A stretch of 64,000 nucleotides of DNA from Patescibacteria group bacterium (GCA_038065355.1 JBBTRC010000010.1:11452-75451); one strand, 5' to 3'; counted from the first letter of the stretch, positions 3,048 through 42,576 are shown. Notes: generated by a model not told the origin, from the letters alone. Numbers and translations are program-made.

Positions 3048-3064
3048 CATGGAGGAGGTGCTTT

Positions 3065-3108: not shown

Positions 3109-3128
3109 ATCTCAACCCACAACAGCTT

Positions 3129-3421: not shown

Positions 3422-3522
3422 GAGATGGCCGAGATGCGAGGCGTGACAAGCTTTTGATTTGAGGTGTACTTGTGTACAGTGAGAAACAAAAGCGCAGTCA
3501 CAACAAAGCAGATTGGCTATAT

Positions 3523-3523
<1 letters not shown>
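3422..3523 (-). promoter_or_regulatory. conserved structured intergenic element, copy X (atpD-atpC spacer)
   Basis: about 100-nt element paralogous to 8371-8472; conserved flanks and loop CUCACUGUACAyrAAGUAC; stem arms differ but stay complementary (GTGAC..CTTTTG / CAAAAG..GTCAC). Confidence 0.45.
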
Positions 3524-4905
<1,382 letters not shown>

Positions 4906-5870: not shown

Positions 5871-5876
5871 GGTGAA

Positions 5877-18873: not shown

Positions 18874-18946
18874 CCGCCCATAGCTCAGTTGGTAGAGCGG
18901 CTCCCTTTTAAGGAGAAGGTCCCAGGTTCGAGCCCTGGTGGGCGGA
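18874..18946 (+). tRNA. tRNA-Lys (anticodon UUU)
   Basis: cloverleaf: acceptor CCGCCCA/TGGGCGG, D-stem GCTC/GAGC, anticodon loop CUUUUAA, T-loop TTCGAGC, discriminator A; CCA not encoded. Confidence 0.8.
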
Positions 18947-18994
18947 CAAAACATAGTTCACAACCATGCCATATACATCGGCTGATGGTAGGAT

Positions 18995-21463: not shown

Positions 21464-23851
21464 CTATGTGTCTGTGCGGTTAAGCTTCTCCATTTCTTCC
21501 CAATTCGGCCCGATTTTCACTTCAGCCAAAATCGGGACTCCGTACGTCTCCTTCTCGTCGAGCGCGTGCTCCATGAGGTGAAGAAGCGGTGGTACCTGCG
21601 CTTTTACGTCGCTGGTTTTGACTTCAAACACGAGCTCATCGTGGATCTGAAGGAGGAGGCGGACAGTATCGACCAATTTGTGCCCTTTTATGTGCGCGGC
21701 AATCTGCACCATGGCGATGCGCACGATGTCGGCGGCCGTACCTTGAATCGGAGCGTTGATGGCCATGCGTTCCGCTTGCGCGCGGATAAACGGCACGCTT
21801 GAAGTGATGCCGGGGAAATGACGCCGGCGACCAAACAGAGTTTCGGTGTAGCCCTCTTTGCGAGCAGCTGTTTTTGTATCCTCCAAGTATTCGGAGAGAT
21901 GCGTGAAGGTTTGGAAGTAGGCAGTGAGGAAGGCTTGCGCTTCTTGGCGCGAAGTATCTCCGCCTAAATTTTGGCGGAGCGCATTGACGCCCATGCCGTA
22001 AAGGATGCCAAAGTTGATAACCTTGGCTTGGCGCCGCATGTTGTCGGTCACCTCCTCCGCATTCACGCCAAACACACGCAGTGCCACGCCGCGATGCACG
22101 TCCTCTCCGCGTTTGAAGATATCAATGAGGTTGGGGTCATGGGACATGATCGCGGCAATGCGCAACTCGATTTGAGAGTAGTCGATAGCGACCAGCGTGT
22201 AGCCTGGCGACGCAACAAAAGCTTTGCGGATAGCTCTTCCCTCTTTCGTGCGCGTAGGGATGTTTTGGATATTTGGATCTTTACTCCCCATCCGGCCGGT
22301 CGTGGTGCCAGTTTGGAGGAAAGTGGTATGCAGTTTGCCGTCCTTATCAACCATAGTCGGCAAGGTGTCGATGTAGGTTGAAACCAACTTTTGCAACTCC
22401 CGGTAACGGAGGATGTCCTCGATGATGGGGTGGGTGCCCTTCAGTTTTTCCAATTCTGACTCTTTGGTGGAACGCTGACCGCCGGCGGTTTTTCTGGCGT
22501 TCTTTATTTTGAGACCAAGCGTGTCAAAAAGAATATCTCCGAGTTGCTTCGGCGAATTGATGTTGAATTCTTTTCCGGCGTGCTGGTAGATGCGTTTTTC
22601 GAGCGTCACAAGTTCGACGTGCAGTTCTTTTGAGAGCTGTTTTAGATACTTCACGTCAAGCGTGATGCCGGTCTGTTGCATCATTTCAATAACTGGAATA
22701 AGCGGTTGCTCAATGTCGGTAAAAATATGCCAGAGGCCTTGTTCTTTCACCTTTTGCTTCAAGGCTTTGACTGTCTCTTCCCAGTTGTTGGCTTTGAGAA
22801 AAGAACGTCCGTATTCCAAAATGTCGGCAACGGTTCCGTTGGTGCGTTCGCTCTCCAAGAGCCAAAGCAAAATCGCCGCTTCTTTATGCGCCTCGGGCGT
22901 GATATTGTCATCAACCTCTGTGGCGGCTGGCGCCAGCTCAAATAACTTTCGCACTCGGTCCGTCACGGTGCGGAAACCAAACTCACTGAAGAGTTTGAGG
23001 ATGGCGTCGGTATCGGCGCGCTCGCGCCAGCGCGTGTCGGTGACGGTGAATGACGGAAGCGCGTCGGTGCGGATGGTCGCCAGCATTTTTGAGAATTCAG
23101 CTTCTTCTTTGCCTTCTTTCAAAAGCGAGACGAGGCGCGGAGAGAGACCAGCGTCAAGAAATGCCTGCTCGTTCTTGGCGAGCGCTTTGTATATTTTTTC
23201 GAGTGAACCGAAGGTGGTGATGAGGGTGGTCGCGGTCTTTTCGCCAATGCCGACGATGCCGGGAATGTTATCGGACGTGTCACCGCGGAGACCTTTATAG
23301 TCGGGCACCAACTTAGGCGGAAAGCCGAAGCGGTCAATGACCGTCGCTTCGTCATATAAAATGGTGTCTTTGATTCCTTTTTTCAGCGTGTAGACCTGCA
23401 CCCGTGTCTTGTCGACGCACTGCAGGGTGTCCATATCTCCCGACGCGATAACAACGCGGAGGTTTTTTTCTGTTTTTGTCAGGTGCGCGATGCTACCCAA
23501 GAGATCGTCAGCTTCGAAGCCCGATCGCTCAAATATAGCAATGCCGAACGCCGCAAAGACCTCGCGTGAGCGGTCGATTTGGGCCACGAGCGCCTCGTCA
23601 ATCTTTTCGCGCTTGGCTTTATAGCCGTCGAAGGCGTCGTGACGATAGGTAGGCTCCGGCAAGTCGTAGCACGCGACGAGGTACTCGGGCTTAAACTCTT
23701 CGATGATCTTGAGGAGCATCGTCACGACGCCGTAGAGCGCACCGGTCGGCTCGCCCGTCGGTGAAGAAAAATCCGGCAGAGCGTGGTACGCCCGATGCAG
23801 AATCGCATGCGCGTCGAGAATCACCAAGGTTTCCTGAGACGTTTTAGACAT
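21464..23851 (-). CDS. polA: DNA polymerase I
   Basis: 5'-3' exonuclease domain (LVILDAHAILHRAYHA...), family-A polymerase motifs (DYSQIELR, RRQAKVINFGILYGMG, QIHDELVFE); ORF extends to 23938, likely start MSKTSQETL. Confidence 0.9.
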   Translation of the reverse strand: MSKTSQETLVILDAHAILHRAYHALPDFSSPTGEPTGALYGVVTMLLKIIEEFKPEYLVACYDLPEPTYRHDAFDGYKAKREKIDEALVAQIDRSREVFAAFGIAIFERSGFEADDLLGSIAHLTKTEKNLRVVIASGDMDTLQCVDKTRVQVYTLKKGIKDTILYDEATVIDRFGFPPKLVPDYKGLRGDTSDNIPGIVGIGEKTATTLITTFGSLEKIYKALAKNEQAFLDAGLSPRLVSLLKEGKEEAEFSKMLATIRTDALPSFTVTDTRWRERADTDAILKLFSEFGFRTVTDRVRKLFELAPAATEVDDNITPEAHKEAAILLWLLESERTNGTVADILEYGRSFLKANNWEETVKALKQKVKEQGLWHIFTDIEQPLIPVIEMMQQTGITLDVKYLKQLSKELHVELVTLEKRIYQHAGKEFNINSPKQLGDILFDTLGLKIKNARKTAGGQRSTKESELEKLKGTHPIIEDILRYRELQKLVSTYIDTLPTMVDKDGKLHTTFLQTGTTTGRMGSKDPNIQNIPTRTKEGRAIRKAFVASPGYTLVAIDYSQIELRIAAIMSHDPNLIDIFKRGEDVHRGVALRVFGVNAEEVTDNMRRQAKVINFGILYGMGVNALRQNLGGDTSRQEAQAFLTAYFQTFTHLSEYLEDTKTAARKEGYTETLFGRRRHFPGITSSVPFIRAQAERMAINAPIQGTAADIVRIAMVQIAAHIKGHKLVDTVRLLLQIHDELVFEVKTSDVKAQVPPLLHLMEHALDEKETYGVPILAEVKIGPNWEEMEKLNRTDT

Positions 23852-23902
23852 AATGTCAGTATACTTTGTTTCTCCGACGTGCACTATAAAAAAACACTTT
23901 AC

Positions 23903-23930
23903 ACTTGACATAAGGTCAAGTATGTGTATA
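23903..23930 (+). promoter_or_regulatory. sigma70-like promoter TTGACA-N16-TATATT for the 24001 ORF
   Basis: near-consensus -35/-10; predicted transcript starts with perfect 9-bp hairpin CAAGCTACA-TGG-TGTAGCTTG and SD GGAAGGAAGGAA. Confidence 0.45.
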
Positions 23931-24000
23931 TTTAACAAGCTACATGGTGTAGCTTGTACCTTAATCAGTACCTCACAACTCGAATGGAAGGAAGGAACTA

Positions 24001-24603
24001 ATGCAAACCGCTCATGTCATTCTGAAGAGCATTTCTCCGCTTTTGCTCAATCCGATGACCGACGAGACGCTTGATGAGCTTTTCGCCGGCTCCGGAGCAC
24101 GCAAATTGCGGAAGACTGACGTTACGCAGGAAGCAGTCGCCGCCAAGAAGGTCATCCGCGACGATGACGGCAACATCGGCCTGCCGGTCGAATACCTCTT
24201 CGCCGCCTTGGTGAACGCCGGTCGCTTCGTGAAGTTTGATTCCAAAAAGAACTTCACCAACGCAACGTCATCGCTGGTGCCCGGCCTGCTTACGCTCGGC
24301 GAAATGTTCTACCCGTTCAAAGATCAGAAAACGCCCTGGACGATCGACAAACGCCGCGGCCGTCTGGCCTCAACCGGTGTCGCCGTCGCCATCATTCGTC
24401 CCAAGTTCAAAGATTGGGCGATTGACCTCACGGCAGAATTCGACGAGGCGCAGGTGAGCGAATCGAAGATTCGCGAACTTTTCAACGCGGCCGGTCGCTT
24501 TTCCGGCCTCGGCGATTTTCGGCCAGCGTGCAAGGGTCCGTTTGGGCGCTTTACGATCGACAGCTGGGAAGTCGTCAAGTCAGAAGTTCGTGAAGCCGCC
24601 TGA
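24001..24603 (+). CDS. hypothetical protein with RAMP-like glycine-rich loop (200 aa)
   Basis: strong SD; C-terminal GRFSGLGDFRPACKGPFGRFTI resembles the G-rich loop (GxGxxxxxGhG + beta-strand) of Cas5/Cas6/Cas7 RAMPs; N-terminal SPLLLN strand. Confidence 0.5.
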   Translation: MQTAHVILKSISPLLLNPMTDETLDELFAGSGARKLRKTDVTQEAVAAKKVIRDDDGNIGLPVEYLFAALVNAGRFVKFDSKKNFTNATSSLVPGLLTLGEMFYPFKDQKTPWTIDKRRGRLASTGVAVAIIRPKFKDWAIDLTAEFDEAQVSESKIRELFNAAGRFSGLGDFRPACKGPFGRFTIDSWEVVKSEVREAA

Positions 24604-25916
24604 CGTACAAGTCTGAATGGCAAGCATGAGCACTCTGCTCCTTCTTGCTATTCTCGCCCGTTCTGTGGGTCGGAGTCTGTGTCATGGACTCCGACTTTAC
24701 ATTACGCACTGTGACGTGTCGTCGGGCAACGTCCGGTCCAGCAGGTTGCGTTGTGCTTAGTTGCGGGTTGGGAGTTTGCAAACTCCCAACAGCTTACGGA
24801 TGGGTAAACTATGGCGCAGTGGGCTCATCCGCGCTCCAGTACGTTGCAGTCACCTATGGATCGGGAGCTTCTGGAGCTCCCGATTTTTCAGACCCAATTT
24901 TGAACGCTTAGTCTACGCGTAGTCACCTGGACTAGTGCATACTTAAGGTCGGGAGTTTCGCCTCTCGACACCTTACCGTTCGGAGTGGTGATGTATGGCT
25001 GTGTCCAGTTAGCCAAAGCAAGGTCCACTACAGGCCAGAGGACTCTTCCTTTGGCAACCTTTGTTCGGTATACTCCCGTTCACTTTACCCGACCAACCTT
25101 TGGTTTACTCCAGCATGGGTTGGATGCACTCCGGTGCTTCCAACATGAATAGAGTAATCTTGGGTGCACTTGACTTGGCTCTTGTCGCGTTAACCACGGT
25201 AAGGGTCGAGAGCTTGGTCTCTCGACAATTCTCAGCTCGGCTTAGTGGGCTGGACTCCCCCAATCTCCACTACGATGGATCACTGTACTGGTCAGGAATC
25301 ACAAGATTCCTGACACATTTGCACTACTGTGCGGCACGCACCACTATCCTGCGTCATGGTGTACTCCGGTTAGCTCTGGGCTGGAAGCTAGAGATAGCTT
25401 CCAGCAAAATATCGCTCTGTAAGGTTGGGTACAGTTGAGTGGTCTCTTGTGTCGTCACCTCATCTTTGGGTTGGAGGGTTTCGACTCGTCAACACTCTTT
25501 ACAGCAAGGTATTGTAGCGTAGCGTTGGCTTCACTACCCTCTCGTAGAATTAGGCTTAGTCGAGTATGGGCGGGGAGGCCTGGGCCTCCCCGCATATCTT
25601 TATTCAAGTTTTGTTCCTTACGTCCTGCGGAGCCTTGCTCCGCCTGATCGCTGGATGTGTATCCAGCCCGATGAGTCCGAAAGGACGAAATCAGTTTTGT
25701 TCTGAGGTCACGTGCGTCTACGTGCGTTCGGCCACTCCGAACTTATGTTTGGGTCGGGAGAGTCCTGACTTTCCCGACATTCTTGCTGTACGCAATTGTG
25801 TGGTCCACCATCCAGTGGTTCCGCATGGTTAGCTACGCCGGAGTAGCGTCCGGGCAGGGAATCTCACCCGAGATTCCCTGCAGTTCTTTGAAAATTAGTC
25901 TTGAAAGGAGACTGTA
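24604..25916 (+). repeat. 1.3-kb non-coding region A densely packed with perfect hairpins, including GTCGGGAG/CTCCCGAC-family repeats
   Basis: family hairpins at about 24669-24695, 24948-24969, 25205-25226, 25753-25778; other perfect stems 24767-24790, 24861-24883(+T5), 25292-25313, 25380-25405, 25570-25593, 25855-25880; no ORF with RBS. Confidence 0.65.
25644..25694 (+). ncRNA. hammerhead ribozyme-like motif, type III topology (possibly degenerate: U4->C)
   Basis: CUGAU-C^-[GCUGGAU-GUGU-AUCCAGC]-CCGAUGA-[GUCC-GAAA-GGAC]-GAAA-UCAG: stems I, II, III, the GAAA and cleavage triplet AUC all in canonical arrangement; only core U4 replaced by C. Confidence 0.45.
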
Positions 25917-27743
25917 ATGAAGCATCCCAACATGGCGAGAGCCTTTCCCCGCCATATCCATGAAGAGACGAAAGACAGCCAGCGCGAAGCGTTGAACTTT
26001 CTCACGGAACATGGGTGTGGTCTCATCGAAAAGCCGACCGGTTCTGGTAAGACCGCCACCGGTATCACGTTTTTACGAGCGTATGAAAAAGCTGGCGTGC
26101 CAGTGCTTTTCTATCTCGTGCCCAACAAAACACTCGCAGCACAAGTGCAGGAACAATACCCTGAAGTTCGAGTCGTCTACGGACGAAACGAACATCCCTG
26201 TCTGTACTACGAGGACAGCTATCAAGCTGATGAAGTACCGTGTTCCATGCTCGGCGACTGTCCCCACCGTGTCGATCAAGATACTGGACAGACACACGAA
26301 CCGGGAGCTTTGCCTTGCCCGTATCTTCAGCAGAAGTACGAAGCGAAGCAGGGCACGATCGTCGTCGCTACCTATGCCTTCTATCTTTTCGCCCATTTCT
26401 TTCAAAAGGAATGGGGAAAGAAACAGGAAGCGATGGTGATTGACGAGGCACATCGCCTTGCCGAATCTATCCGCAGCGTGCTTTCCTATGAGATCACTGA
26501 TTACCAGCTCGGCCGGGCACTTGAAGCGCTTTCTGGCTTTGCTGATGATCAAACCATTCTGCGATTAGAGGAATTCCAAACGTCGTTTCTCAAGATCATC
26601 AAGAGCAAACCTTCGGGCCAGCGGATGATTCTGACAGAGGACGACATCTACGAACTTCTCTATCACGTCCAGCTCTTGCAACCAACGCGCCTGCGCCAAC
26701 AAATTGCCGAAGCAGTACGTAAAGGCCGGCTCGATCCGATCGCTGACCGCGAGACGCTCCGGCGTCTTGAGGATATTACCTACAGCCTGACGCGTTACCT
26801 GCGTTCGCTCGAGTATTCAGTGAAAGATGGGAAACGCAAAGCGCTTAACTACATCTTCGCCTACTGGCAATCAGAAAAGGGCGAGCATGACAAAGTGCAG
26901 TATCGGCTAGTCGTAAAGGCGTATGCGGTTGGACCGCTGATTGCCAAAATGTTGCCGAAACGTCTCTTGGCCATGAGCGCGACGATCAGCGATCCAGACA
27001 TGTTGAAGATCGAAAGCGGGATTGATTTGCCGTTTTTGTCTTTGACATCTGACTGGCCGTCTGAGAACACGCGCATCTTCATGCCGACTGACTCACCAAA
27101 CTTGGCCGTCAATAAACGCGGCCGAGATGGGGTGGTGCGAACGCAAAATACGCGGGAAAAGACCAAAATCCTGCGCAAGGTCGCCAAGGCATGTAAACGC
27201 TTTGGCGACCAAGGACTGCGGTCACTCGTTGTGGTTGTCTCAAATGACGAACGACACAAATTCCTGGCCCTAGCGGAAGAGGAAGGTGTCGATGTCATCA
27301 GCTACGATGCAGAACGAAAGCCACGAGAGGTCGCCCAAGCCTTTAAAGATGGCGAGGGTGACGTGCTTGTTGGCACTACCGCTCACTTTGGCGAAGGAAT
27401 CGACCTGCCCGACGGCACGGCGCCGATCACTTTCTTTCTGCGGCCAGGCTACCCAAATCCTACTGAACCAGGTACGCAATTCGAGGCAGATCGTTTTGGC
27501 AGTCGACGGTGGGCTCTGTGGCAATGGCGCGTTATCGTGCAAGCGCTACAAGTCCGCGGTCGGAACGTGCGGAGCGTAGAAGACAAGGGTGTAACCATCT
27601 TTGTTTCCCAACAATTCCGCAAGTTTCTATTACATTCATTGCCGGAGTGGCTGAAACCCGCCTACCGCGGCAACAGCACCTGGGAACAATGCCTCGACGA
27701 AACGGAGGCGTTACTTCTGAAGCGGAAACGACTGAAAAAGTAG
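25917..27743 (+). CDS. DinG/XPD/YoaA-family Fe-S DNA helicase (superfamily 2, DEAH)
   Basis: motif I EKPTGSGKT, four Cys between motifs Ia and II (C95,C110,C115,C134: Fe-S domain), motif II VIDEAHRL, motif III SAT, C-terminal HFGEGIDLPDG and QxxGRNVRS motifs; SD AAGGAG. Confidence 0.8.
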   Translation: MKHPNMARAFPRHIHEETKDSQREALNFLTEHGCGLIEKPTGSGKTATGITFLRAYEKAGVPVLFYLVPNKTLAAQVQEQYPEVRVVYGRNEHPCLYYEDSYQADEVPCSMLGDCPHRVDQDTGQTHEPGALPCPYLQQKYEAKQGTIVVATYAFYLFAHFFQKEWGKKQEAMVIDEAHRLAESIRSVLSYEITDYQLGRALEALSGFADDQTILRLEEFQTSFLKIIKSKPSGQRMILTEDDIYELLYHVQLLQPTRLRQQIAEAVRKGRLDPIADRETLRRLEDITYSLTRYLRSLEYSVKDGKRKALNYIFAYWQSEKGEHDKVQYRLVVKAYAVGPLIAKMLPKRLLAMSATISDPDMLKIESGIDLPFLSLTSDWPSENTRIFMPTDSPNLAVNKRGRDGVVRTQNTREKTKILRKVAKACKRFGDQGLRSLVVVVSNDERHKFLALAEEEGVDVISYDAERKPREVAQAFKDGEGDVLVGTTAHFGEGIDLPDGTAPITFFLRPGYPNPTEPGTQFEADRFGSRRWALWQWRVIVQALQVRGRNVRSVEDKGVTIFVSQQFRKFLLHSLPEWLKPAYRGNSTWEQCLDETEALLLKRKRLKK

Positions 27744-28560
27744 TCGCTGCAATATCGTGCGGTATCCTTCGCTCCTGTACAGTTAGGTTAGCTACGGTCG
27801 ACTCGACTCCGGGCGGAAGAGCTCCGGTTCTCCCGCGACGTTAGGTCCTGTTTGGTCAGGTTCACACCAGTTCGGTCACCTGTGGTCCGGGCTGGGGATT
27901 AACATCTCCAGCAGAATTTAGTGCAGTGTGGGCTTCCCTATACTTCTCTGGCCTACGCAATCGCACTCTGCGGGCTGGAACGTAAATACGTTCCAGCAAC
28001 ATTCTGTCCGGCAAGGCACGGTTATCTGCGCTAGGTTGGGTCAAACTCAAGTATTGTATGGGCTGGGAAAGCTTCGCTTTCCCTGCTTCGTATCGTATTG
28101 TCGGCTTTAGTGAACCTTACTTGCCCGCTCTGTAGAGTCCTAGTCTAAGGGTCGGGAGATGAACGTCTGCCGACAATATTTCTCCGGGCTTACCTGTCGC
28201 TAGCTTCTGTTTTGTGCACCAATGCACTCTAAGGGTCGAGGAATCGTCTGACTCCTCGACAACTTTCTGTCTGGTGGCGTTGCCTCCAGTCCACTCCGGT
28301 TGCGTGGGGCTGAGTAAGCTATGGGTCAGTGTCTCAGGACACTGACAACATATCGTGACGTTCTGTCGGGTAACTTGCGCCATTCTTGGTAAGGATTAAC
28401 TAGTCTGTGAGTTGGGAGACTTTGTCTCCCAACAACTTTGAGCTAGGTAACGTCCACTAGAGTTAGTCGTCCTGGCGTTCTCTGTGCTTTCGTCACCTTC
28501 TGTATCGGTCGGGAGCGAAAAAGTCGCTCCCGACGTTTCTCTTGAAAGAAAGGAAATCCC
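27744..28560 (+). repeat. 0.8-kb non-coding region B, paralogous to region A (hairpin family plus decayed hammerhead unit)
   Basis: family hairpins at about 28151-28174, 28235-28260, 28411-28433, 28508-28534, variants 28062-28086; GCTGGAACGT-AAAT-ACGTTCCAGC (27974-27997) and GTCAGTGTC-TCAG-GACACTGAC (28325-28346) are covarying homologues of region A hairpins. Confidence 0.6.
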
Positions 28561-28929
28561 ATGCCGCTTGAAATCGGTAAAGGTTGTCGCGGCATGACGT
28601 CAGTGCATGCCAAAAGACACAAGAAGTTGATGTTTCACCACACAGTCACGCGAGAAGCGTTTCATTTCGTCAGTTGGTTGGTTGACCAGAATGAGATTCT
28701 TGAAATTGATCTTGGTAAGGTCGGCACCTATCGAGGTAATACTGAGTTTCGGGTCGACATCGACGACAACACCTTGAGCTTTTTAGTCAAAGGAAACTTC
28801 TCGTACCAAATTATACGAACTACCATCCGACCAATCGTCGCTTACCAACCAAATGCGCTGTTAAAATTTCTTCAGCGTTGTGAGGAAGAGTGGCAAAAGT
28901 CGATGGGGAATCCAGTCGAAACACGATGA
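28561..28929 (+). CDS. hypothetical protein (122 aa)
   Basis: ORF with SD AAGGAAA; no recognisable motif; flanked on both sides by family hairpins. Confidence 0.45.
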   Translation: MPLEIGKGCRGMTSVHAKRHKKLMFHHTVTREAFHFVSWLVDQNEILEIDLGKVGTYRGNTEFRVDIDDNTLSFLVKGNFSYQIIRTTIRPIVAYQPNALLKFLQRCEEEWQKSMGNPVETR

Positions 28930-29044
28930 CTTGCAGTAGCGTAAACCTATCTTCGCCCAGGTATTCTTGACTGTGGTTGCCTGCGGGTGGGGGTTATTTC
29001 CCCCACAACACTCAAGACTATATTTCTACAGTTATTCTTTACGG

Positions 29045-29103
29045 GTCGGGAGCTTCTTTTTGAGACTCCCGACAAACACCTCAAATAACGAGGTGTTTTT
29101 TAT
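29045..29103. terminator. family hairpin (GTCGGGAG-N13-CTCCCGAC) followed by bidirectional terminator CACCTC-AAATAAC-GAGGTG-T6
   Basis: second hairpin is flanked by A- and T-runs, between the 122-aa ORF and convergent tsaE. Confidence 0.5.
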
Positions 29104-29547
29104 TTAAAAAACTTGGGCGATTCGTTGTCCGTTTTTCTGTATCTCAAGCTGGATTGTCACGAGACTACGAGGAAGCGTGGCGGAGATTTTTTCGGCCCAT
29201 TCAATGCAAAAGAGCGTGTGTGACTGTTGCAGAAATTCAGAGAAACGCAGCGGCGCTAGCTCGGACACACTCTCGATGCGGTAGGCGTCCATGTGAAGGA
29301 GGGTTGGCCACTGTGCGTCGGTAGTTTCGTACTGTTTCAGAATAATAAAGGTTGGACTGGTGACCGTTTCGGTGACACCGAGATGGCGCGCGAGTGTTTG
29401 CACAAAAGTTGTTTTCCCCGCTCCGAGGTCACCCGAGAGCGCAATGACTGTAGCACTCTCGGTCGAGAGTGCTCGACAGCGCTCGATGACGCGAAGAACA
29501 AAAGCGTCGAGCTCTTCGAGCGTGTGAATGGCGATTGTCTCTATCAT
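29104..29547 (-). CDS. tsaE: tRNA threonylcarbamoyladenosine biosynthesis protein TsaE
   Basis: 147 aa; [13 protein letters not shown]-loop and SPTF motif of YjeE/TsaE. Confidence 0.8.
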
Positions 29548-37764: not shown

Positions 37765-38051
37765 AGGAGCGCTTCTGGCGCCGACGAACCGAGTCGTTCC
37801 TTTAACACGTTCAGGATGGCTTTTTTGTGGAGAAAGATTTCTGACTTCATCACACTCGGCACCTGAATACTAACTGTCTTGGTGGCAACTGTGTACGAGA
37901 TAGCCTCGGCAGAGATGTCAAACGTGGTGACTTCCTTTATCGCAATGGCGCACTCTCTTTCAACGGTCGCCTGGGGTGGTTTTAAGCGTTTGCGATAGCT
38001 TTCAAACAAATCGCCCACCTTTTTAATCCGTATGTCAGGTGGTTTCCTCAT
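37761..38051 (-). CDS. small protein downstream of dnaN (DUF721-like?)
   Basis: 96 aa, position equivalent to the yaaA/DUF721 slot after dnaN; weak assignment. Confidence 0.3.
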   Translation of the reverse strand: MRKPPDIRIKKVGDLFESYRKRLKPPQATVERECAIAIKEVTTFDISAEAISYTVATKTVSIQVPSVMKSEIFLHKKAILNVLKERLGSSAPEALL

Positions 38052-38053
38052 GC

Positions 38054-39148
38054 CTACTTGTTCATGGGCATCACCAAATAGCGAAGAGATTTATCGGTGG
38101 CACCTTCCATTACCATGGCTCGCCCAAGACCGGCAAAACTAAGCTTTACCGAATCATCAAACACATGGGTGAGTGGATCCATAATGTACTGTTGGTTGAA
38201 ATTGAGCCTAAGCTCTTCACCGGTCACGTCGGCTTTAATAGTGTCGGTGATATGGCCAACGTCATTATTTTGTGAGGAGATAGTGAGTGAGTTCGTGGTT
38301 ACTAAAAGCGACACTTGGCGAAACTTATTCAAGAATATTGAGGTTTTTTTGAACGAACGGAGAAGGTCGTCTTTGAGCACAACCACATGTGACACGTACT
38401 CTTTGGGAATAATCTGCGCGTAGTCAGGAAAACTTCCCGTCACCAGTCGAGAAGAAATGTATATGCCGTTTGTGAATTCGATGGCGCACTGGTTCTCGCT
38501 CACCGTACAGACAGGGTCACCTTCGGCGACCTCGCATACGCGAGCGAGCTCGAGAGCGTTTTTTTGCGGAATCATGACGGATTGCTCAAGAATAAAACCT
38601 TTTTGGGGAACCGTCTTTTCCATCAAACGGAACGAGTCGGTCGCCACAAAGGTGAGAGAGTGCTCTTTCTTCTGCTGAATGAAAACGCTTCCGAGCTCTG
38701 GTTTAATTGAGGTGAGTGAAGCGGCGAACGCCACACTTTTAATGCCGAGTGCGAACATGTTCGCTTGAATTGTCCCGCCGGTTTTTTTGAGTTTATTAAA
38801 TTTTGGAAACTCGTCAACTGAAAAAAGTTTAATGGAAGTATTTGTTGAGGCGGTCTCTATTTGGAGAGTTTGGTCTTCGGTACGGAGGGTGATTTGTGGT
38901 TGATTAATGTATTGAATACTTTGAAGAAATGTCTGTGTAGGGACAGCAATAATTCCTTCCTCGCTCACCTTCGCAGTAATACTTAATTCAACACTCACCT
39001 CTAAATTTGTAGCCTGAAGAATAATTTTACCTTTTACCGCTTCGAGCCGAACACATTGTAAAACTGGTAAGGTGACGTGACGAACACTAATTCGACTAAG
39101 GAGCTCAAGTTGTTTAAGTAGTTCGCTGTGAGTAATTGTTATTTCCAT
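38054..39148 (-). CDS. dnaN: DNA polymerase III beta sliding clamp
   Basis: 364 aa, three-domain DnaN-like; directly downstream of dnaA. Confidence 0.9.
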   Translation of the reverse strand: MEITITHSELLKQLELLSRISVRHVTLPVLQCVRLEAVKGKIILQATNLEVSVELSITAKVSEEGIIAVPTQTFLQSIQYINQPQITLRTEDQTLQIETASTNTSIKLFSVDEFPKFNKLKKTGGTIQANMFALGIKSVAFAASLTSIKPELGSVFIQQKKEHSLTFVATDSFRLMEKTVPQKGFILEQSVMIPQKNALELARVCEVAEGDPVCTVSENQCAIEFTNGIYISSRLVTGSFPDYAQIIPKEYVSHVVVLKDDLLRSFKKTSIFLNKFRQVSLLVTTNSLTISSQNNDVGHITDTIKADVTGEELRLNFNQQYIMDPLTHVFDDSVKLSFAGLGRAMVMEGATDKSLRYLVMPMNK

Positions 39149-39475
39149 ATTTTATTTATACATCATTTTACTCACTATTATTAAGGGTGTGGAGATGTGT
39201 AAAAACCAATTATGTGTCGTATTTTAAAGCTAGATTTCTGGTGATAAATACTCATAAAGTGGTGAAATCCTAGTCTGCCGCACGAACTACTTGGGGGTAA
39301 GGTAGAGGTACTGTTTTTTGTTGGGGAAAAAGTTCTACTGTCCCTCTCCCCACTCCCAGCTACCCAGATTCTTATAAGTCACTCTTTACCACACTACTCA
39401 CCATTCTTTTCCACAGATGGTGAGTAATTTTAAAATGATTGTGGTGTTAAAAAATAATCTCCGGAAATTCGGAGG
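39149..39475. other. candidate oriC (dnaA-dnaN intergenic, AT-rich DUE plus DnaA-box-like 9-mers)
   Basis: AT-rich tract 39150-39185; TTTTCCACA (about 39407) 1 mismatch to TTATCCACA, TTTACCACA and TGTGGAGAT 2 mismatches; dnaA terminator CTCCG-GAAATT-CGGAG at 39459-39474. Confidence 0.4.
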
Positions 39476-40858
39476 TTATTTTAGCAACATTCGCACTTGG
39501 GTGATTTCTTCTTCTAGTTCGGTTGATAATTTTAGTTCCGCTTTAATTTTTTCACACGAGTGAATGACGGTCGTGTGATCTCTTCCTCCTAATTTCTTTC
39601 CGATCGCTGGATACGATACTTGGAAATCTTCTCGCAAGATGTACATAATAATCTGTCGAGGCTTTACCACTTCCTTCCGCCTGGTTTTTTCGTAGATGCT
39701 TGCTTGATCGATGTCATAAAAGCGTGCCACTTTTTCAACCACATCGGAAATAGCCAAAGTTTTCCGCGGCCGAGAGCTGTTTTTGATGATAGTACGTACC
39801 TCATCGATAGAGAGGGTGCGACCAAGGAGTTGCGATTGGCACATAATAGTGTTGAGCGCCCCTTCAAGCTCTCGCACGTTGCCTTCGATGGTGTGGGCGA
39901 GGTGTTCAACCACGTCATCGCTCAGCGTGATGCTGTTTTGGGCTGATTTCGCGCGCAAAATAGCCGCTCGCGACTCCAAGTCGGGCGCGGGCAAATCAAC
40001 AATCATCCCTTGCGCGAACCGTGACTGGAGGCGTTCTTCAAGGCCGGAGAGAAGCGCTGGGTGCACATCGCTTGAGAATACAATTTGCTTGTTGTTATCA
40101 TGAAGCGCGTTGAATAAATGAAACAGCTCTTCCTGGGTTTTTTCTTTTGAAGCCAGAAACTGCACATCGTCCATAACCAACACGTCGTACTGGCGATATT
40201 TATCTTTGAAACTGTTGGCACTACCGTTTTGCAACGCGTTGAAGTAATCAACCGCAAAGCGTTCGCTTGTGACGTAGAACACTTTTTTCCCCGTCTTCTT
40301 AATCTGGTTTCCGACCGCTTGGATCAAGTGAGTCTTACCGTGACCGGTTTTTCCGTAAATAAAGAGTGGGTTGTAGGTAATGCCGGGTTTTTCACTCACC
40401 GTCTTAGCGGCCGCGTGCGCAAGCGCGTTGTAAGGGCCAACTACAAAGTTTTCAAAGGAGTAGCGGGGGTTTAGGTTGTCGCTTTTGTTGATGTAGTAGT
40501 CTTCGAGCGGCAAGGCTGCGTTCACAGTCTGATTTTTGGTTGACTCCTGCTTGCGTTCGTTTCTTTGTACGACCGCGTATTCAACACTGCGAACATATGG
40601 GGTGAGCTCTCGGAGCGTCTTAAGGATCATGGTGTTGAATTTGTCCTGCAGCCAATCCCTTACAAACACACTCGGTACTCCAATAGAGGCTGTTCCATCT
40701 TCGAGTGAGACAATGTGGGTATCTCTAAACCAAGTCTTGAAGTTGGCGGTCGTAATAGCAAGCTCTATTTTGACCAACGCATCGTCCCACAATTGTTTTA
40801 CATCAATTTGTTCAGTCCGAACGATACTGTTAGATATTTGATGTGAGATAGGATTCAT
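39476..40858 (-). CDS. dnaA: chromosomal replication initiator DnaA
   Basis: 460 aa; AAA+ GKTGHGKTHL, sensor motifs, C-terminal DNA-binding signature (RDHTTVIHSCEKI). Confidence 0.95.
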   Translation of the reverse strand: MNPISHQISNSIVRTEQIDVKQLWDDALVKIELAITTANFKTWFRDTHIVSLEDGTASIGVPSVFVRDWLQDKFNTMILKTLRELTPYVRSVEYAVVQRNERKQESTKNQTVNAALPLEDYYINKSDNLNPRYSFENFVVGPYNALAHAAAKTVSEKPGITYNPLFIYGKTGHGKTHLIQAVGNQIKKTGKKVFYVTSERFAVDYFNALQNGSANSFKDKYRQYDVLVMDDVQFLASKEKTQEELFHLFNALHDNNKQIVFSSDVHPALLSGLEERLQSRFAQGMIVDLPAPDLESRAAILRAKSAQNSITLSDDVVEHLAHTIEGNVRELEGALNTIMCQSQLLGRTLSIDEVRTIIKNSSRPRKTLAISDVVEKVARFYDIDQASIYEKTRRKEVVKPRQIIMYILREDFQVSYPAIGKKLGGRDHTTVIHSCEKIKAELKLSTELEEEITQVRMLLK

Positions 40859-41018
40859 ACTTCAGACAACCAGTAATGCAATAGGCGTAACTTGCATTAT
40901 ACTCGTGTCAAAAGAACTGTAAATGTTTTTGGCGTTTTAGGCTATTTCAAAACCATTTTTCAAATTTGAAAATGCAACTGTGCATAACGTGTGCACAACT
41001 ATTCAACCAATGTAGAGA

Positions 41019-41120
41019 GCTCGTTCTCCACTACATATTTTGAGCGTCCGCGGGGGTAAAGTGCTTGTAGTAGTAACCAAACATCGGAGCGTGTGAAAAA
41101 TATGTAGTGGGGAACGAGCG
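41019..41120 (+). repeat. palindromic repeat element family, copy 1 (upstream of dnaA)
   Basis: conserved core ACATATTTTGAGCGTCCGCGGGGGTA..AACCAAACATCGGAGCGTGTGAAAAATATGT flanked by copy-specific inverted arms GCTCGTTCTCCACT / AGTGGGGAACGAGC. Confidence 0.6.
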
Positions 41121-41181
41121 TCGAGTATTCCCATTGAATATTTTACATAATCATGTATAGTTGCGCGGTAATCTACAACCT

Positions 41182-41331
41182 ATGCCAAAACGAACCTACC
41201 AACCAAGCAAGCGCAAGCGAGCCACTACCCACGGTTTTCTCGTACGGTCACAGACCACGAGCGGTGCCAAGGTGCTCCGCGCCCGTCGCCGCAAAGGTCG
41301 CGCACGATTAACGGTTAAAAAAGCTCGCTAA
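41182..41331 (+). CDS. rpmH: 50S ribosomal protein L34
   Basis: 49 aa [25 protein letters not shown]...; below ORF-track size cutoff; classic rpmH-rnpA-yidC order. Confidence 0.85.
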
Positions 41332-41363
41332 GAGCTTTTTTTGATTGTTATACTAGAGTATCT

Positions 41364-41696
41364 ATGCTCAAAAAAAGTGAACGTGTAGGCCGTAAGGACT
41401 TCAGCGTCTTTTTTAAGTCTGGCCGCCGCTTCCAGTCCCCCCACACGACTATCATCTACACTCCCCACCCGACATTGGCTGGTTCGGTCGTGGTGAGCAA
41501 GAAGGTGAGCAACAAAGCGGTCGAACGAAACAAACTTCGCCGCCGTGTGTATGACGCACTCCGGCAGACTCTAAAGACGCAAAAGAAAACCGGCGTGTTC
41601 ATTGTGGTTGTAAAGCCATCCATTCGTTCGCTTCCGCGCGCCGAGCAAAGAAGCCACCTGCTCGCGCAAATTGGACAGGTAGTCAAAAGCACGTAA
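41364..41696 (+). CDS. rnpA: RNase P protein component
   Basis: 110 aa basic protein with RNR-like motif region (KLRRRVYDALRQ). Confidence 0.8.
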   Translation: MLKKSERVGRKDFSVFFKSGRRFQSPHTTIIYTPHPTLAGSVVVSKKVSNKAVERNKLRRRVYDALRQTLKTQKKTGVFIVVVKPSIRSLPRAEQRSHLLAQIGQVVKST

Positions 41697-41708
41697 AATA
41701 GGCAAATT

Positions 41709-42440
41709 ATGTTTAGCTTCATCTGGCACACATTTTTCTTTGACCCAATTTACAATATGTTGGTGTTCTTTGTTGACACCTTCCCTCATGGGGATGTTGG
41801 TCTCGCGATTGTCGCTACCGTCCTTTTGGTGAAGCTGGTGCTCTTACCACTTTCGATCAAGGCGCTCCAAACCCAGAAAATCATGCGTGAGATCGAACCG
41901 AAACTGAAAGAGATTCGGGAAACTCACAAAACTGACAAAGAAGCACAGGCAAAAGCCACCATGGCGATTTACAAAGAAGCAAAACTCAATCCCTTTGCGA
42001 GCATCTTTCTCGTTTTCTTGCAGATTCCGATTGTCATTGCATTGTATTACGCGGTGTATAGCGGTAGCGCCGGTATTGCTTTGCCAAACATTAACCCTGC
42101 AATTCTCTACTCGTTTATCCCAGTGCCCGAAGCTGTCTCTATGATCTTCCTGGGCTTGTTTGATATTTCACAAAAAAGCCTTGTGCTCGCGCTCTTGGCC
42201 GGTGTCACACAGTATTTGTACGTGCATCTATCGATGCCCAAATTGCCTCAGAAAAAAGAAGGCGTCACGCCCGACCTCAAGGAAGATTTTATGCGTAACA
42301 TGCAGTTACAGATGAAGTATGTGATGCCAGTAATTATCACCGTCATTGCCTATACCATTTCAGCCACCATCGCGCTGTACTTTTTGGTCAGCAACCTGGC
42401 GGCAATCGCACAGGAGTTTTATATTCGTAAGCATAGATAG
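41709..42440 (+). CDS. yidC: membrane protein insertase YidC/Oxa1 (short form)
   Basis: 243 aa, 5 TM, conserved TM1 positive patch and amphipathic helix (KIMREIEPKLKEIRETHKTD). Confidence 0.85.
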   Translation: MFSFIWHTFFFDPIYNMLVFFVDTFPHGDVGLAIVATVLLVKLVLLPLSIKALQTQKIMREIEPKLKEIRETHKTDKEAQAKATMAIYKEAKLNPFASIFLVFLQIPIVIALYYAVYSGSAGIALPNINPAILYSFIPVPEAVSMIFLGLFDISQKSLVLALLAGVTQYLYVHLSMPKLPQKKEGVTPDLKEDFMRNMQLQMKYVMPVIITVIAYTISATIALYFLVSNLAAIAQEFYIRKHR

Positions 42441-42449
42441 GGACACCCC

Positions 42450-42545
42450 ACTCCTCACTGTGCATATTTTTCACACGCTCCGATGTTTGGACACCACTAC
42501 AAGCACTGTACCCCCGCGGACGTTCAAAATATGTAATATGAGGTA
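42450..42545 (-). repeat. palindromic repeat element family, copy 2 (minus orientation)
   Basis: reverse complement matches core of copy 1 over about 80 nt; arms CCTCACTGTGC / GTAATATGAGG. Confidence 0.6.
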
Positions 42546-42576
42546 AGGTACCTTTATGGACGCCAACCGTGAAGCT

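What the first reader, a model, noticed from the sequence alone, without database searches (positions are those of the whole stretch)
25292..28346. Paralogous structured units on both sides of the helicase gene show hairpin covariation and decayed hammerhead copies
Region A (upstream of the helicase) and region B (downstream) share homologous segments. For example GGTCAG-GAATC-ACAA-GATTC-CTGACA (25291-25314) aligns with GGTCAG-TGTC-TCAG-GACA-CTGACA (28324-28347), where the inner stems differ but remain paired. The hammerhead stem I hairpin GCUGGAU..AUCCAGC has two relatives, GCTGGAAGCTA-GAGA-TAGCTTCCAGC (25380-25405) and GCTGGAACGT-AAAT-ACGTTCCAGC (27974-27997). Each is preceded by CTCTG(C/G)G and followed by ..CTGT..A(G)GTTGGGT, but both lack the CUGAUGA/GAAA boxes. 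So the helicase gene is bracketed by same-strand direct repeats of a structured unit of about 100-300 nt. One copy retains a hammerhead core. This arrangement is more typical of mobile or satellite-like ribozyme-bearing repeats than of ordinary intergenic DNA.
Basis: seen in the sequence. Interest (0 to 1): 0.6.

Follow-up and report, generated by a model that had tools for sequence, protein, structure and literature searches.

The report
VIPR guide-RNA arrays flanking a helicase
The repeated hairpins on both sides of the helicase gene are the 3' ends of about 24 small guide RNAs of a VIPR system, a CRISPR-like RNA-guided DNA-recognition system first described in 2026 preprints, so this is a real but already explained kind of locus.

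Summary
The hairpins are real, but they are not decayed hammerheads or a mobile ribozyme repeat.

- **Locus:** Window 23905-29098 (+) looks like one operon of a Patescibacteria genome. It reads promoter, 200-aa gene, 13 repeat units plus one hammerhead, XPD/DinG-like helicase, 9 units, 122-aa gene, 2 units, terminator.
- **Unit:** Each unit is about 88 nt. It holds about 12 pentamers with consensus YNNNS and a strong 5-nt periodicity (z = 7-10, absent from coding DNA). An 8-12 bp hairpin with the form GG|GYYGGR...YCCRRC|AA follows, and its upper stem covaries between units.
- **Protein:** A profile of the 200-aa protein family matches the solved SUSP1 Vipr protein (E = 9e-15). It keeps the G-loop D-F-R and thumb R-P motifs and models as a Cas7-like RAMP.
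- **Match to literature:** This fits VIPR systems (bioRxiv 10.64898/2026.04.26.720920): a Vipr protein, vrRNAs made of pentamer repeats with a structured tail, helicase accessory genes, and hammerhead-interspersed arrays.
- **Relatives:** 51 of 57 related genomes keep vipr next to the helicase. Some have up to 11 perfect hammerheads between units.
- **Not established:** No natural target was found. RNA expression and the helicase's role are inferred.

Verdict: a new member of a known kind.

The parts
23905..23932 (+). sigma-70-like promoter (TTGACA-16-TATATT) upstream of vipr; probable start of the operon
   Evidence: matches 11 of 12 consensus positions. It is the only strong + strand promoter match in 23800-29300. 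This is a consensus match only.
24001..24603 (+). vipr gene (200 aa): a Vipr-family minimal RAMP protein
   Evidence: a profile of 40 homologues hits PDB 36pp_D 'SUSP1 Vipr protein' at E=8.9e-15 over residues 1-188. The thumb RP.F..W and the G-loop G.GD(F/W)RP..FGRF are aligned.: phrog_4652, E=7e-18.: AF2 model with pLDDT 87; best PDB folds are Cas7/Csm3 of type III and type VII CRISPR.: linked to the helicase in 51 of 57 loci.
24604..25597 (+). vrRNA array A, units 1-11. Each unit is about 12 YNNNS pentamers plus a tail hairpin. Tails: 24669-24695, 24767-24790, 24860-24884, 24948-24969, 25034-25055, 25119-25144, 25205-25226, 25291-25314, 25380-25405, 25470-25493, 25569-25594.
   Evidence: position 1 of the pentamer is Y in 86%, position 5 is G/C in 84%. 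Period-5 power z=9.7 (T) and 7.5 (G) against shuffles. Unit spacing is 85-99 nt.
25627..25643 (+). short hairpin GCGGAGC-CUU-GCUCCGC abutting the hammerhead. It would be the 3' end of the upstream cleavage product.
   Evidence: The same hairpin-plus-hammerhead arrangement occurs in L007 and before every hammerhead of L021.
25644..25694 (+). type III hammerhead ribozyme. Predicted cleavage is between C25649 and G25650. The core reads CCGAUGA (U4 to C).
   Evidence: Rfam Hammerhead_3, 20 bits (gathering score 48.5).: 73.4 bits against a model of 26 relatives, in which 13 of 16 pairs show changes on both sides. A hammerhead lies 29-222 nt upstream of the helicase start in 10 loci.
25695..25881 (+). 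vrRNA units 12-13 between the hammerhead and the helicase start (tails 25753-25778 and 25854-25881)
25917..27743 (+). accessory (vap-like) gene: XPD/DinG-family helicase, 608 aa, with four invariant cysteines consistent with an Fe-S cluster
   Evidence: Helicase_C_2, ResIII, DEAD_2.: PADLOC typeIV_DinG (CAS-IV-A associated), E=4.7e-42 over the full length.: invariant C95, C109, C115, C134.: more than 300 homologues; every named one shown is labelled Patescibacteria/Parcubacteria-type.
27744..28534 (+). vrRNA array B, 9 units. Tails: 27813-27836, 27891-27912, 27974-27997, 28062-28086, 28151-28174, 28235-28260, 28325-28346, 28411-28433, 28508-28534.
   Evidence: (period-5 z=8.1 for T, 6.8 for G).: + strand RNA folds at -326 kcal/mol (z=-7.3); - strand at -275 kcal/mol (z=-5.9).
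28561..28929 (+). 122-aa ORF of unknown function; possibly a second accessory protein
   Evidence: no family match.: homologues inside or beside the arrays of L007, L015, L008, L026, L029 and L037.: the single-sequence model is unusable (pLDDT 51).
28930..29073 (+). vrRNA array C, 2 units (tails 28987-29006 and 29045-29073)
   Evidence: The period-5 signal here is weak (z about 1), so the assignment rests mainly on the tail hairpins.
29074..29098 (+). intrinsic-terminator-like hairpin plus U tract; probable end of the operon, convergent with tsaE

Best explanation
The region is a chromosomal VIPR (Viral Interference Programmable Repeat) locus of a Patescibacteria bacterium. The 'structured units' are an array of about 24 vrRNA guide genes.

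**Predicted operon (23905-29098, + strand)**
- It encodes Vipr (a minimal Cas7-like RAMP), an XPD/DinG-like helicase as accessory protein, and a 122-aa protein.
- Three blocks of about 88-nt units are interleaved with these genes.

**Each unit**
- About 12 pentamers of consensus YNNNS make up the guide.
- A GC-rich hairpin follows as the 3' tail or handle. Its lower stem is conserved and its upper stem is free to covary.

**Mechanism, inferred from the characterised SUSP1 system**
- One Vipr protomer binds each pentamer. It sequesters the conserved bases and presents the variable bases.
- Those bases pair with double-stranded DNA in a gapped register, forming an R-loop triplex. This silences or marks foreign DNA.
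- The helicase would then act on the bound target. This is inferred by analogy with DinG in type IV-A CRISPR-Cas.

**The hammerhead**
- The single hammerhead cuts the transcript between the upstream array and the part that carries the helicase mRNA.
- Relatives use hammerheads, or a promoter plus terminator, between every unit.
- How the other units of this window are released is unknown.

**Shown here:** protein homology, the pentamer code, tail covariation, hammerhead covariation, and synteny.
**Inferred:** transcription, processing, DNA targeting, and the helicase's role.
For: **Vipr homology**
- A profile of the 200-aa family hits the solved SUSP1 Vipr at E=8.9e-15. The thumb R133-P134 and the G-loop D172-F173-R174 align with R138 and D177-W178-R179 of SUSP1 (residues named in 10.64898/2026.04.26.720927).
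- tblastn finds Felixounavirus/SUSP2 proteins.
- The AF2 model (pLDDT 87) is closest to Cas7/Csm3.

**vrRNA architecture**
- 300 pentamers in register with the hairpins give position 1 Y in 86% and position 5 G/C in 84%. Positions 2-4 are near background.
- Period-5 power is z=7-10 in arrays A and B and about 0 in five coding genes. 18% of array windows exceed the threshold against 0.19% elsewhere in the 64 kb.
- About 12 repeats plus a tail make about 88 nt. This fits the published 9-16 repeats and roughly 100-nt vrRNAs.
- YNNNG-type alternative repeats, helicase accessory genes and hammerhead-interspersed arrays are all described for VIPR.

**Tails**
- The 25 array hairpins (24 tails and the pre-hammerhead hairpin) have a conserved base and a covarying top. 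G-U outnumbers A-C 12 to 3.
- The + strand folds 51 kcal/mol better than the - strand.

**Relatives**
- vipr is linked to the helicase in 51 of 57 loci.
- Period-5 tracts flank the helicase in 50 of the 57 GTDB loci as well as in the window and L007.
- All 39 hammerheads are on the helicase strand. L021 has 11 between units.
- L067, L031 and L017 use a promoter plus terminator per unit.

**Guide-like evolution**
- Arrays of the window and L007 cannot be aligned, although the flanking genes are 66-69% identical.
- Two strains differ by exactly one 90-nt unit.
- No self-target reaches 80% in the window, as reported for VIPR.
Against: - Only 18% of pentamers are strict YNNGG. The consensus here is YNNNS, with C allowed at position 5 and a weak position 4. 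The published 1-nt-skip NN rule may therefore not apply unchanged.
- No credible natural target was found in the window, in 0.63 Mb of related loci, in five IMG/VR pattern scans or in one metagenome scan. Those public scans required exact matches.
- No expression or processing data exist for this organism.
- The hammerhead core has C at the normally invariant U4.
- Units without a hammerhead, promoter or terminator have no identified processing route.
- The locus sits among housekeeping genes, not in a defence island.
- The VIPR type (I-VII) could not be assigned because the preprint's type tables are not available as text.
Confidence: 0.88

Rival explanations
1. Mobile or satellite-like ribozyme-bearing repeats. 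On this view the units are copies of a hammerhead-containing element that spread around the helicase gene, and most copies have lost their ribozyme core.
For: - One hammerhead is present.
- Relatives have tandem hammerheads.
- Contig L010 begins and ends inside identical hammerheads.
- In L007 the module lies beside a serine recombinase and a terminase-like ORF.
Against: - No residual hammerhead signal exists in any other unit, even with filters off.
- No copies of the unit or its periodicity occur elsewhere in the 64 kb.
- The arrangement with vipr and the helicase is conserved across 51 of 57 genomes.
- The inter-hairpin tracts carry a pentamer code that this model does not explain.
Confidence: 0.02
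2. Ordinary RNA punctuation. On this view the hairpins are REP-like or terminator/stabiliser stem-loops, and long structured UTRs regulate or stabilise the helicase mRNA. No guide function is involved.
For: - The hairpins are GC-rich. In some relatives they are followed by U tracts and act as terminators.
- Several window hairpins pass a loose terminator scan.
Against: - This does not explain the strict spacing of about 88 nt.
- It does not explain the 5-nt YNNNS periodicity confined to the spacers.
- It does not explain the obligatory Vipr-family RAMP gene.
- It does not explain per-unit promoters in relatives.
Confidence: 0.04
3. A degenerate or atypical type IV-like CRISPR array. On this view the hairpins are CRISPR repeats processed by a Cas6-like enzyme, the 60-nt tracts are spacers, and DinG is the effector helicase.
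For: - The helicase's best PADLOC match is type IV-A DinG.
- The upstream protein has a Cas7-like fold.
- The hairpin-plus-variable-tract layout resembles a CRISPR array.
Against: - The repeats are not identical. Tandem Repeats Finder finds no array, and only the stem base is conserved.
- The 'spacers' are internally periodic pentamers.
- No cas1, cas2, cas6 or csf1-3 is present among the neighbouring genes.
- The RAMP matches Vipr by sequence.
Confidence: 0.03
4. A domesticated or decaying VIPR derivative. The locus descends from a VIPR system, but in these bacteria it no longer targets foreign DNA. It might instead guide the helicase to the cell's own DNA for repair or regulation, or be drifting toward loss of function.
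For: - The pentamer consensus is weak (18% YNNGG).
- The hammerhead carries a U4-to-C change.
- The neighbours are housekeeping genes.
- No viral targets were found.
- The module is very widespread in Patescibacteria.
Against: - No self-target was found in the 64 kb.
- The same YNNNS consensus and intact Vipr contact residues are kept across most of the family. This argues for selection rather than decay.
- Arrays turn over quickly, as guide sets do.
Confidence: 0.08

Closest known systems
VIPR systems, type II (Escherichia phage SUSP1, P. fulva prophage); bioRxiv 10.64898/2026.04.26.720920 and 10.64898/2026.04.26.720927
   Same: - A protein of about 200 aa of the Vipr family, with sequence-level homology and conserved G-loop and thumb residues.
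- Guide RNAs of about 100 nt made of roughly 12 pentamer repeats followed by a structured 3' tail.
- Arrays placed both upstream and downstream of the protein genes.
- An accessory gene beside vipr, and no self-targets.
   Different: - The host is a cellular Patescibacteria chromosome, not a phage.
- There are 24 guides rather than about 4.
- The pentamer consensus is YNNNS rather than YNNGG. The residue aligned with SUSP1 H17, which reads the first G, is N here.
- The tail is a simple hairpin rather than a pseudoknotted tail.
- The accessory gene is an XPD/DinG-like helicase rather than a DNA-binding protein.
- One hammerhead is present.
Hammerhead-interspersed vrRNA arrays and helicase- or nuclease-encoding VIPR types (types I, III-V of the same preprint)
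   Same: - The preprint reports hammerheads between adjacent vrRNAs (fig. S19).
- It reports helicase accessory genes in types III-V.
- It reports alternative NNNGG, YNNNG and NNNNG repeats.
- The relatives found here (L021, L026, L029, L064) show exactly such arrays.
   Different: - Which type this clade belongs to could not be checked, because the type tables are not held as text.
- The preprint's ribozyme examples are from types I and V, whereas helicases are listed under types III-V.
- In the window itself only one hammerhead remains.
Type IV-A CRISPR-Cas (Csf complex with DinG/Csf4)
   Same: A RAMP-guide-RNA filament paired with a DinG-family helicase and no nuclease. The helicase matches the PADLOC typeIV_DinG model at E=4.7e-42.
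   Different: - No CRISPR repeats, and no Csf1, Csf3 or Csf5.
- Guides are gapped pentamer codes, not contiguous spacers.
- The NCBIfam cas_csf4 match is negligible (E=1.7e-4, 20 bits against a cut-off of 400).
Clustered hammerhead ribozymes flanking genes in prophages, and the hammerhead upstream of the helicase gene of haloviruses HF1/HF2 (Perreault et al. 2011, PMC3088659)
   Same: Same-strand hammerheads that would cut a polycistronic transcript. One lies just upstream of a helicase ORF.
   Different: - Here the segments released are non-coding guide RNAs of a VIPR array.
- The hammerheads are a compact 51-nt type III form with a conserved UGUGU loop 1 and GAAA loop 2. Most fall below Rfam's threshold.

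Membership tests
VIPR system | Vipr protein: a minimal RAMP (RRM core, G-loop, thumb) homologous to characterised Vipr | tested here: met
   - Profile against PDB 36pp_D (SUSP1 Vipr): E=8.9e-15 over residues 1-188, with aligned RP.F..W and GD(F/W)RP..FGRF motifs.
- The AF2 model (pLDDT 87) is closest to Cas7/Csm3.
VIPR system | vrRNA guide region: 9-16 tandem pentanucleotide repeats (YNNGG or a related consensus) with hypervariable inner positions | tested here: met
   - About 12 pentamers per unit. Position 1 is Y in 86% and position 5 is G/C in 84%; positions 2-4 are near background.
- Period-5 z=7-10.
- Strict YNNGG accounts for only 18%, so the feature is met as the 'related consensus' (YNNNG-like) that the preprint allows.
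VIPR system | Structured, conserved 3' tail capping each guide | tested here: met
   24 hairpins of 8-12 bp directly follow the repeat tract. The base GYYGG/CCRRC is conserved, the upper stem covaries, and G-U exceeds A-C. This is a simple hairpin, not the pseudoknot of the SUSP1 clade.
VIPR system | Minimal locus: vipr plus an accessory (vap) gene with long flanking non-coding regions, no CRISPR array and no other cas genes | tested here: met
   - The order is vipr, array, helicase, array, 122-aa ORF, array.
- No tandem-repeat array.
- Neighbours are polA, tsaE, a pilB-like gene and ruvB.
VIPR system | vrRNAs are expressed as RNAs of about 100 nt and co-purify with Vipr | not testable with these tools
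   No transcriptome data are available. Only a predicted promoter (23905-23932) and terminator (29074-29098) support transcription.
VIPR system | Guides match natural DNA targets by the gapped (1-nt skip) rule, without self-targets | tested here: inconclusive
   - No self-target exceeds 71% in the window, which is no better than shuffled guides.
- No excess was seen in 0.63 Mb of related loci.
- Exact-pattern scans of IMG/VR (5) and metagenomes (1) gave only chance-level hits. The best was 22/24 in a low-GC AlaX-like gene.
- A mismatch-tolerant search of large collections was not possible.
Hammerhead ribozyme (type III) | Conserved catalytic core CUGANGA ... GAAA with a non-G cleavage-site nucleotide | tested here: not met
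   In the window copy every core position matches except U4, which is C (CCGAUGA). The cleavage site is AUC|G. 37 of 39 family members have CUGAUGA or CUGACGA; L029:2280 also has C4.
Hammerhead ribozyme (type III) | Three stems around the core, supported by covariation | tested here: met
   26 sequences give 97.6% paired cells, and 13 of 16 pairs change on both sides. The sequences were picked by a pairing-aware pattern, so the paired percentage is partly by construction.
Hammerhead ribozyme (type III) | Reaches the Rfam gathering score | tested here: not met
   20.0 bits against 48.5. Among the relatives only L026:5240-5294 passes, with 50.5 bits.
Hammerhead ribozyme (type III) | Self-cleavage activity | not testable with these tools
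   Needs in vitro transcription of 25600-25720 with C4 and with a U4 revertant.
Type IV CRISPR-Cas | CRISPR array of near-identical repeats and Csf1/Csf2/Csf3 (plus or minus Cas6) genes | tested here: not met
   No repeat array. Only a DinG-like helicase resembles a type IV component, and the cas_csf4 equivalog scores 20 bits against a cut-off of 400.
Mobile or satellite-like hammerhead repeats (retrozyme-like) | Element bounded by hammerhead-containing repeats, in multiple dispersed copies with target-site duplications | tested here: not met
   There is one hammerhead and no relics. No other copies occur in the 64 kb. The synteny is conserved.

The most novel reading that the evidence does not exclude
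The helicase-linked Patescibacteria clade may be a distinct VIPR variant. Three reasons:
- Its pentamers (YNNNS) leave three positions free, and the Vipr residue that reads the first G in SUSP1 (H17) is replaced by N or D. The clade could therefore use a recognition code different from the published NN/1-nt-skip rule.
- Its effector is a DinG-like Fe-S helicase, as in type IV-A CRISPR-Cas. This would make it a living intermediate between VIPR and helicase-dependent CRISPR interference.
- It has become a chromosomal guide library of 24 guides, present across many ultra-small bacteria that mostly lack CRISPR.
Probability: 0.2. Interest if true: 0.75.

Novelty: new member of a known kind. Interest (0 to 1): 0.45.

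Why it matters
- VIPR was described only in 2026 preprints and characterised mainly in a coliphage and a Pseudomonas prophage.
- This locus shows a large chromosomal form with about 24 guides, coupled to a DinG-like helicase. It occurs in Patescibacteria, organisms with tiny genomes in which more than 2 kb of non-coding DNA is conspicuous.
- Across relatives the same guide units are released in three interchangeable ways: hammerheads, a promoter plus terminator for each unit, or bare hairpins.
- The family offers material for testing how the pentamer code varies (YNNNS against YNNGG). It also allows tests of what a helicase adds to a Vipr filament, and whether type IV CRISPR-Cas and helicase-VIPR systems share ancestry.
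- For genome annotation, hairpins about 88 nt apart with 5-nt periodicity between them should be read as vrRNA arrays, not as ribozyme relics or repeat elements.

Tried and rejected
- **Rfam:** Gathering thresholds on the window and 17 loci gave only tRNAs, one LOOT RNA and one hammerhead. E-value mode on the locus gave a sub-threshold hammerhead and noise.
- **Phage DNA:** blastn of the locus against the phage collection found nothing.
- **Region A against region B, and against relatives:** No similarity beyond the hammerhead and short hairpin matches.
- **Decayed hammerheads:** Rejected by a filter-off covariance search.
- **CRISPR-like array:** Rejected.
- **Integron attC-like sites, terminator arrays, sRNA sponge:** Considered from the hairpin shape. 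Dropped once the pentamer periodicity and the Vipr match were found.
- **Targets:** Seven pairing models (NN or NNN with 0-3 skipped bases) against the window gave no excess over shuffled guides, and the NN + 1-skip model against related loci gave none either. Five IMG/VR scans and one metagenome scan with exact 9-10-repeat patterns gave chance-level hits only.
- **Strain differences by pentamer phase (L007 against L015):** No clear enrichment at variable positions, with counts of 8, 9, 14, 14 and 9. Inconclusive.
- **122-aa protein:** No family match, no database homologues by word search, and an unusable single-sequence model.
- **VIPR type assignment:** Not possible, because the type tables and figures are not held as text.
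- **Literature before the Vipr hit:** Searches for hammerhead with Patescibacteria, or with helicase arrays, found nothing relevant.

Full report
**Setting.** The window comes from a Patescibacteria (Parcubacteria/Paceibacterota-like) genome assembled from Hainich groundwater. The helicase protein is found identically on ENA and Logan contigs from that site, and NCBI labels it 'Patescibacteria group bacterium'. Around the finding the + strand carries the following:
- a 200-aa ORF (24001-24603);
- 1313 nt without a credible ORF;
- a 608-aa XPD/DinG-type helicase (25917-27743);
- 817 nt of non-coding sequence;
- a 122-aa ORF (28561-28929);
- 174 nt of non-coding sequence, followed by the convergent tsaE.

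The neighbours are housekeeping genes (polA, a pilB-like ATPase, ruvB) and not a defence island. More than 2 kb of non-coding DNA is unusual for such compact genomes.

**Checking the observation.** They are a sample of a much larger family. I count 24 same-strand tail hairpins of 8-12 bp, plus one shorter hairpin (25627-25643) abutting the hammerhead.
- Thirteen tails lie upstream of the helicase, nine downstream, and two after the 122-aa ORF.
- The tails start 78-101 nt apart within each block, with a median near 88.
- The lower stem is conserved: pair 1 is G-C in 22 of 25, pair 4 is G-C in 21, and pairs 2-3 are Y-R. The upper stem differs from copy to copy while staying paired.
- In total there are 226 Watson-Crick pairs, 12 G-U pairs and only 3 A-C.
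- The hairpins are usually preceded by GG and followed by A.
- The core GGTYGRGAG occurs 9 times in the window against 1.7 expected, and seven of the nine are in these arrays.
- Array B folds at -326 kcal/mol as + strand RNA (z = -7.3) and -275 kcal/mol as - strand RNA. With the G-U excess, this points to a + strand RNA.

Outside the hairpins, regions A and B are not alignable with each other. 'Paralogous' therefore holds for architecture, not for sequence.

**The hammerhead.** Positions 25644-25694 form a complete type III hammerhead.
- Stem III is CUGAU/AUCAG and the cleavage site is C25649|G25650.
- Stem I is GCUGGAU/AUCCAGC, and stem II is GUCC/GGAC with a GAAA loop.
- One deviation exists: the core reads CCGAUGA, with C at the normally invariant U4.
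- Rfam scores it 20 bits against a gathering score of 48.5.

I aligned 26 related copies without gaps. Of the 16 pairs, 13 change on both sides. These sequences were picked with a pairing-aware pattern, so the paired percentage is partly built in.

A covariance model from that alignment scores the window copy at 73 bits. It finds 39 copies in 13 of the 61 sources searched (12 distinct loci, since L007 and L015 are strains of one species), all on the helicase strand. With filters off, the window locus holds no second match: the next best scores 8 bits. The two 'decayed hammerhead copies' are thus ordinary members of the hairpin family.

**Relatives.** The helicase has hundreds of homologues. 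Every one the sources name is labelled Patescibacteria/Parcubacteria-type. I fetched 57 loci from GTDB species genomes and several metagenomic ones.
- A homologue of the 200-aa protein lies next to the helicase in 51 of the 57. Three of the six exceptions have less than 200 nt of upstream sequence.
- The two genes are separated, and the helicase followed, by ORF-poor stretches of 0.3-3.6 kb. These carry the same kind of hairpin, gg-G(N)C(R)GGR...YCC(Y)G(N)C-aa.

The way units are separated varies between lineages:
- L021 has 11 hammerheads, ten of standard 51-nt length and one with an enlarged stem II, each preceded by a GCUGGGG..CCCCGC hairpin. They would cut the transcript into RNAs of 134-139 or 280-317 nt plus the helicase mRNA.
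- L067, L031 and L017 give each unit a TTGACA promoter and a U-tract terminator.
- The window and L007 have bare hairpins and a single hammerhead.

A hammerhead 29-222 nt upstream of the helicase start recurs in ten loci.

**Identification.** No Pfam, NCBIfam or PADLOC model matches the 200-aa protein, and only PHROG 4652 (unknown function) does. A profile of 40 homologues hits one solved structure, 36pp chain D, 'SUSP1 Vipr protein', at E = 8.9e-15 over residues 1-188. That led to two 2026 preprints from one group: 10.64898/2026.04.26.720920 and 10.64898/2026.04.26.720927. According to them:
- VIPR systems consist of Vipr, a minimal RAMP of about 20 kDa related to Cas5/6/7, and vrRNAs.
- A vrRNA has 9-16 YNNGG pentamers followed by a structured 3' tail, about 100 nt in all.
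- One Vipr protomer binds each pentamer. It buries the GGY bases and presents the NN bases, which pair with dsDNA while skipping every third target base.
- Loci are minimal: vipr, an accessory 'vap' gene and long non-coding flanks.
- Seven types exist. Types III-V encode nucleases or helicases.
- Some arrays are 'hammerhead ribozyme-interspersed', and alternative NNNGG, YNNNG and NNNNG repeats occur.

**Testing the identification on the window.**
- *Protein.* The alignment to SUSP1 Vipr conserves the thumb (R133-P134 against R138-P) and the G-loop (D172-F173-R174 against D177-W178-R179). The structural preprint names these as the contacts to the conserved bases. The AF2 model (pLDDT 87) finds Cas7/Csm3 subunits of type III and type VII CRISPR complexes as its best solved folds.
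- *RNA.* I aligned the 60 nt upstream of each of the 25 hairpins on the hairpin start. This shows a clear pentamer register. Position 1 is T or C in 86% (T in 67%) and position 5 is G or C in 84%. Position 4 is G in 36%, and positions 2 and 3 are near background.
- *Register-free test.* A Fourier test gives period-5 power z = 9.7 and 8.1 (T) and 7.5 and 6.8 (G) for arrays A and B. Five coding genes range from -1.9 to 1.1. A period scan peaks only at 5.
- *Specificity in the window.* Across the whole 64 kb, 18% of array windows exceed the threshold against 0.19% elsewhere.
- *Relatives.* The same signal flanks the helicase in 50 of the 57 GTDB loci, and in the window and L007. Position 1 is Y in 73-98% and position 5 is mostly G.

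Each unit is therefore about 12 pentamers plus a hairpin tail, about 88 nt. That is the published vrRNA plan with a YNNNS consensus. Strict YNNGG makes up only 18% of pentamers. In keeping with this, the residue aligned with SUSP1 H17, which reads the first G, is N or D in most of this clade and never H.

**Behaviour as guides.**
- The arrays of the window and of L007 cannot be aligned, although their helicase and vipr genes are 66-69% identical at the DNA level.
- Two strains that are about 97% identical (L007 and L015) differ by one 90-nt unit in array A.
- Substitutions between these strains are not clearly concentrated at the variable pentamer positions.
- No self-target reaches 80% of variable bases in the window under any of seven pairing models. 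The preprint reports the same for VIPR.

**Transcription.**
- A near-consensus promoter (TTGACA-16-TATATT) lies at 23905-23932.
- A terminator-like hairpin with a U tract lies at 29074-29098.
- No other strong + strand promoter match lies between them, so a single operon of about 5.2 kb is the simplest reading. This is a prediction from consensus matches only.

**What remains open.**
- I found no credible natural target. Exact-pattern scans of IMG/VR (five guides) and of JGI metagenomes (one guide) returned chance-level hits. The best, 22 of 24 bases, lies in a low-GC AlaX-like gene unrelated to groundwater Patescibacteria. These tools cannot run the mismatch-tolerant search the preprint used.
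- It is unknown how the units lacking a hammerhead, promoter or terminator are released.
- It is unknown whether the C4 hammerhead cleaves.
- The function of the 122-aa protein is unknown.
- The helicase's role is inferred only from its family: XPD/DinG with four invariant cysteines, and a best PADLOC match to type IV-A DinG.
- The VIPR type could not be assigned from the text available.

**Verdict.**
- The hammerhead-relic and mobile-element interpretation is wrong.
- The locus is a VIPR system with three vrRNA blocks around a helicase accessory gene.
- Its kind and nearly all of its features are already in the 2026 preprints, so I rate it a new member of a known kind.
- Its points of interest are the size of the array, the YNNNS consensus, the DinG-like helicase and its spread across Patescibacteria.

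Noticed in passing
L010:1-29 and L010:3325-3372: A 3372-nt Logan contig (helicase 72% identical to the window's) begins and ends inside identical hammerheads, and the ends overlap by about 27 nt. Either two identical ribozyme copies broke the assembly, or the molecule is circular.
   Followed up: no
L007:4405-4533 (- strand): A LOOT RNA (Rfam RF03000, 75 bits) lies beside a serine recombinase, a ParB-methyltransferase and a small-terminase-like ORF, a few kb upstream of that genome's VIPR module. There the module sits in a prophage-like context next to tRNA genes, unlike the housekeeping context in the window.
   Followed up: partly
L021:2754-2840, 3062-3150, 3471-3555, 6020-6105, 6305-6395: A second, longer vrRNA tail type made of three hairpins (GGUCGG..CCGAC, CUUAAGU..ACUUAAGG, CAGUGCUUUC-GAAA-GAGAGUGCUG). 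It is almost identical between copies and alternates with hairpin-plus-hammerhead punctuation. No Rfam family matches it.
   Followed up: partly
L067:2400-3930; L031:3100-3900 and 5860-6800; L017:2380-3900: In these relatives each guide unit has its own TTGACA promoter and a U-tract terminator instead of hammerheads. The same guide array is thus expressed in at least three different ways within one family.
   Followed up: partly
L007:7399-7488 versus L015: Two strains about 97% identical differ by exactly one 90-nt unit, plus a 16-nt indel, in the upstream array. A block at L007:7883-7949 is locally replaced. Arrays change by gain or loss of whole units.
   Followed up: yes
window:28561-28929: A 122-aa ORF with no detectable family is embedded between guide blocks. 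Homologues sit inside the arrays of L026, L029 and L037 and downstream in L007 and L015. It may be a second accessory protein of this VIPR clade.
   Followed up: partly
window:24860-24889: The tail of unit 3 (AUCGGGAGCUU..GAGCUCCCGAU) is followed by UUUUU and looks like an intrinsic terminator inside the array. It may attenuate read-through from vipr.
   Followed up: no
window:18874-18947 and 38000-43000: A tRNA-Lys(UUU) gene lies at 18874-18947. A stretch of lower G+C (0.43-0.48 against about 0.52) lies at 38-43 kb. Neither appears connected to the locus.
   Followed up: no
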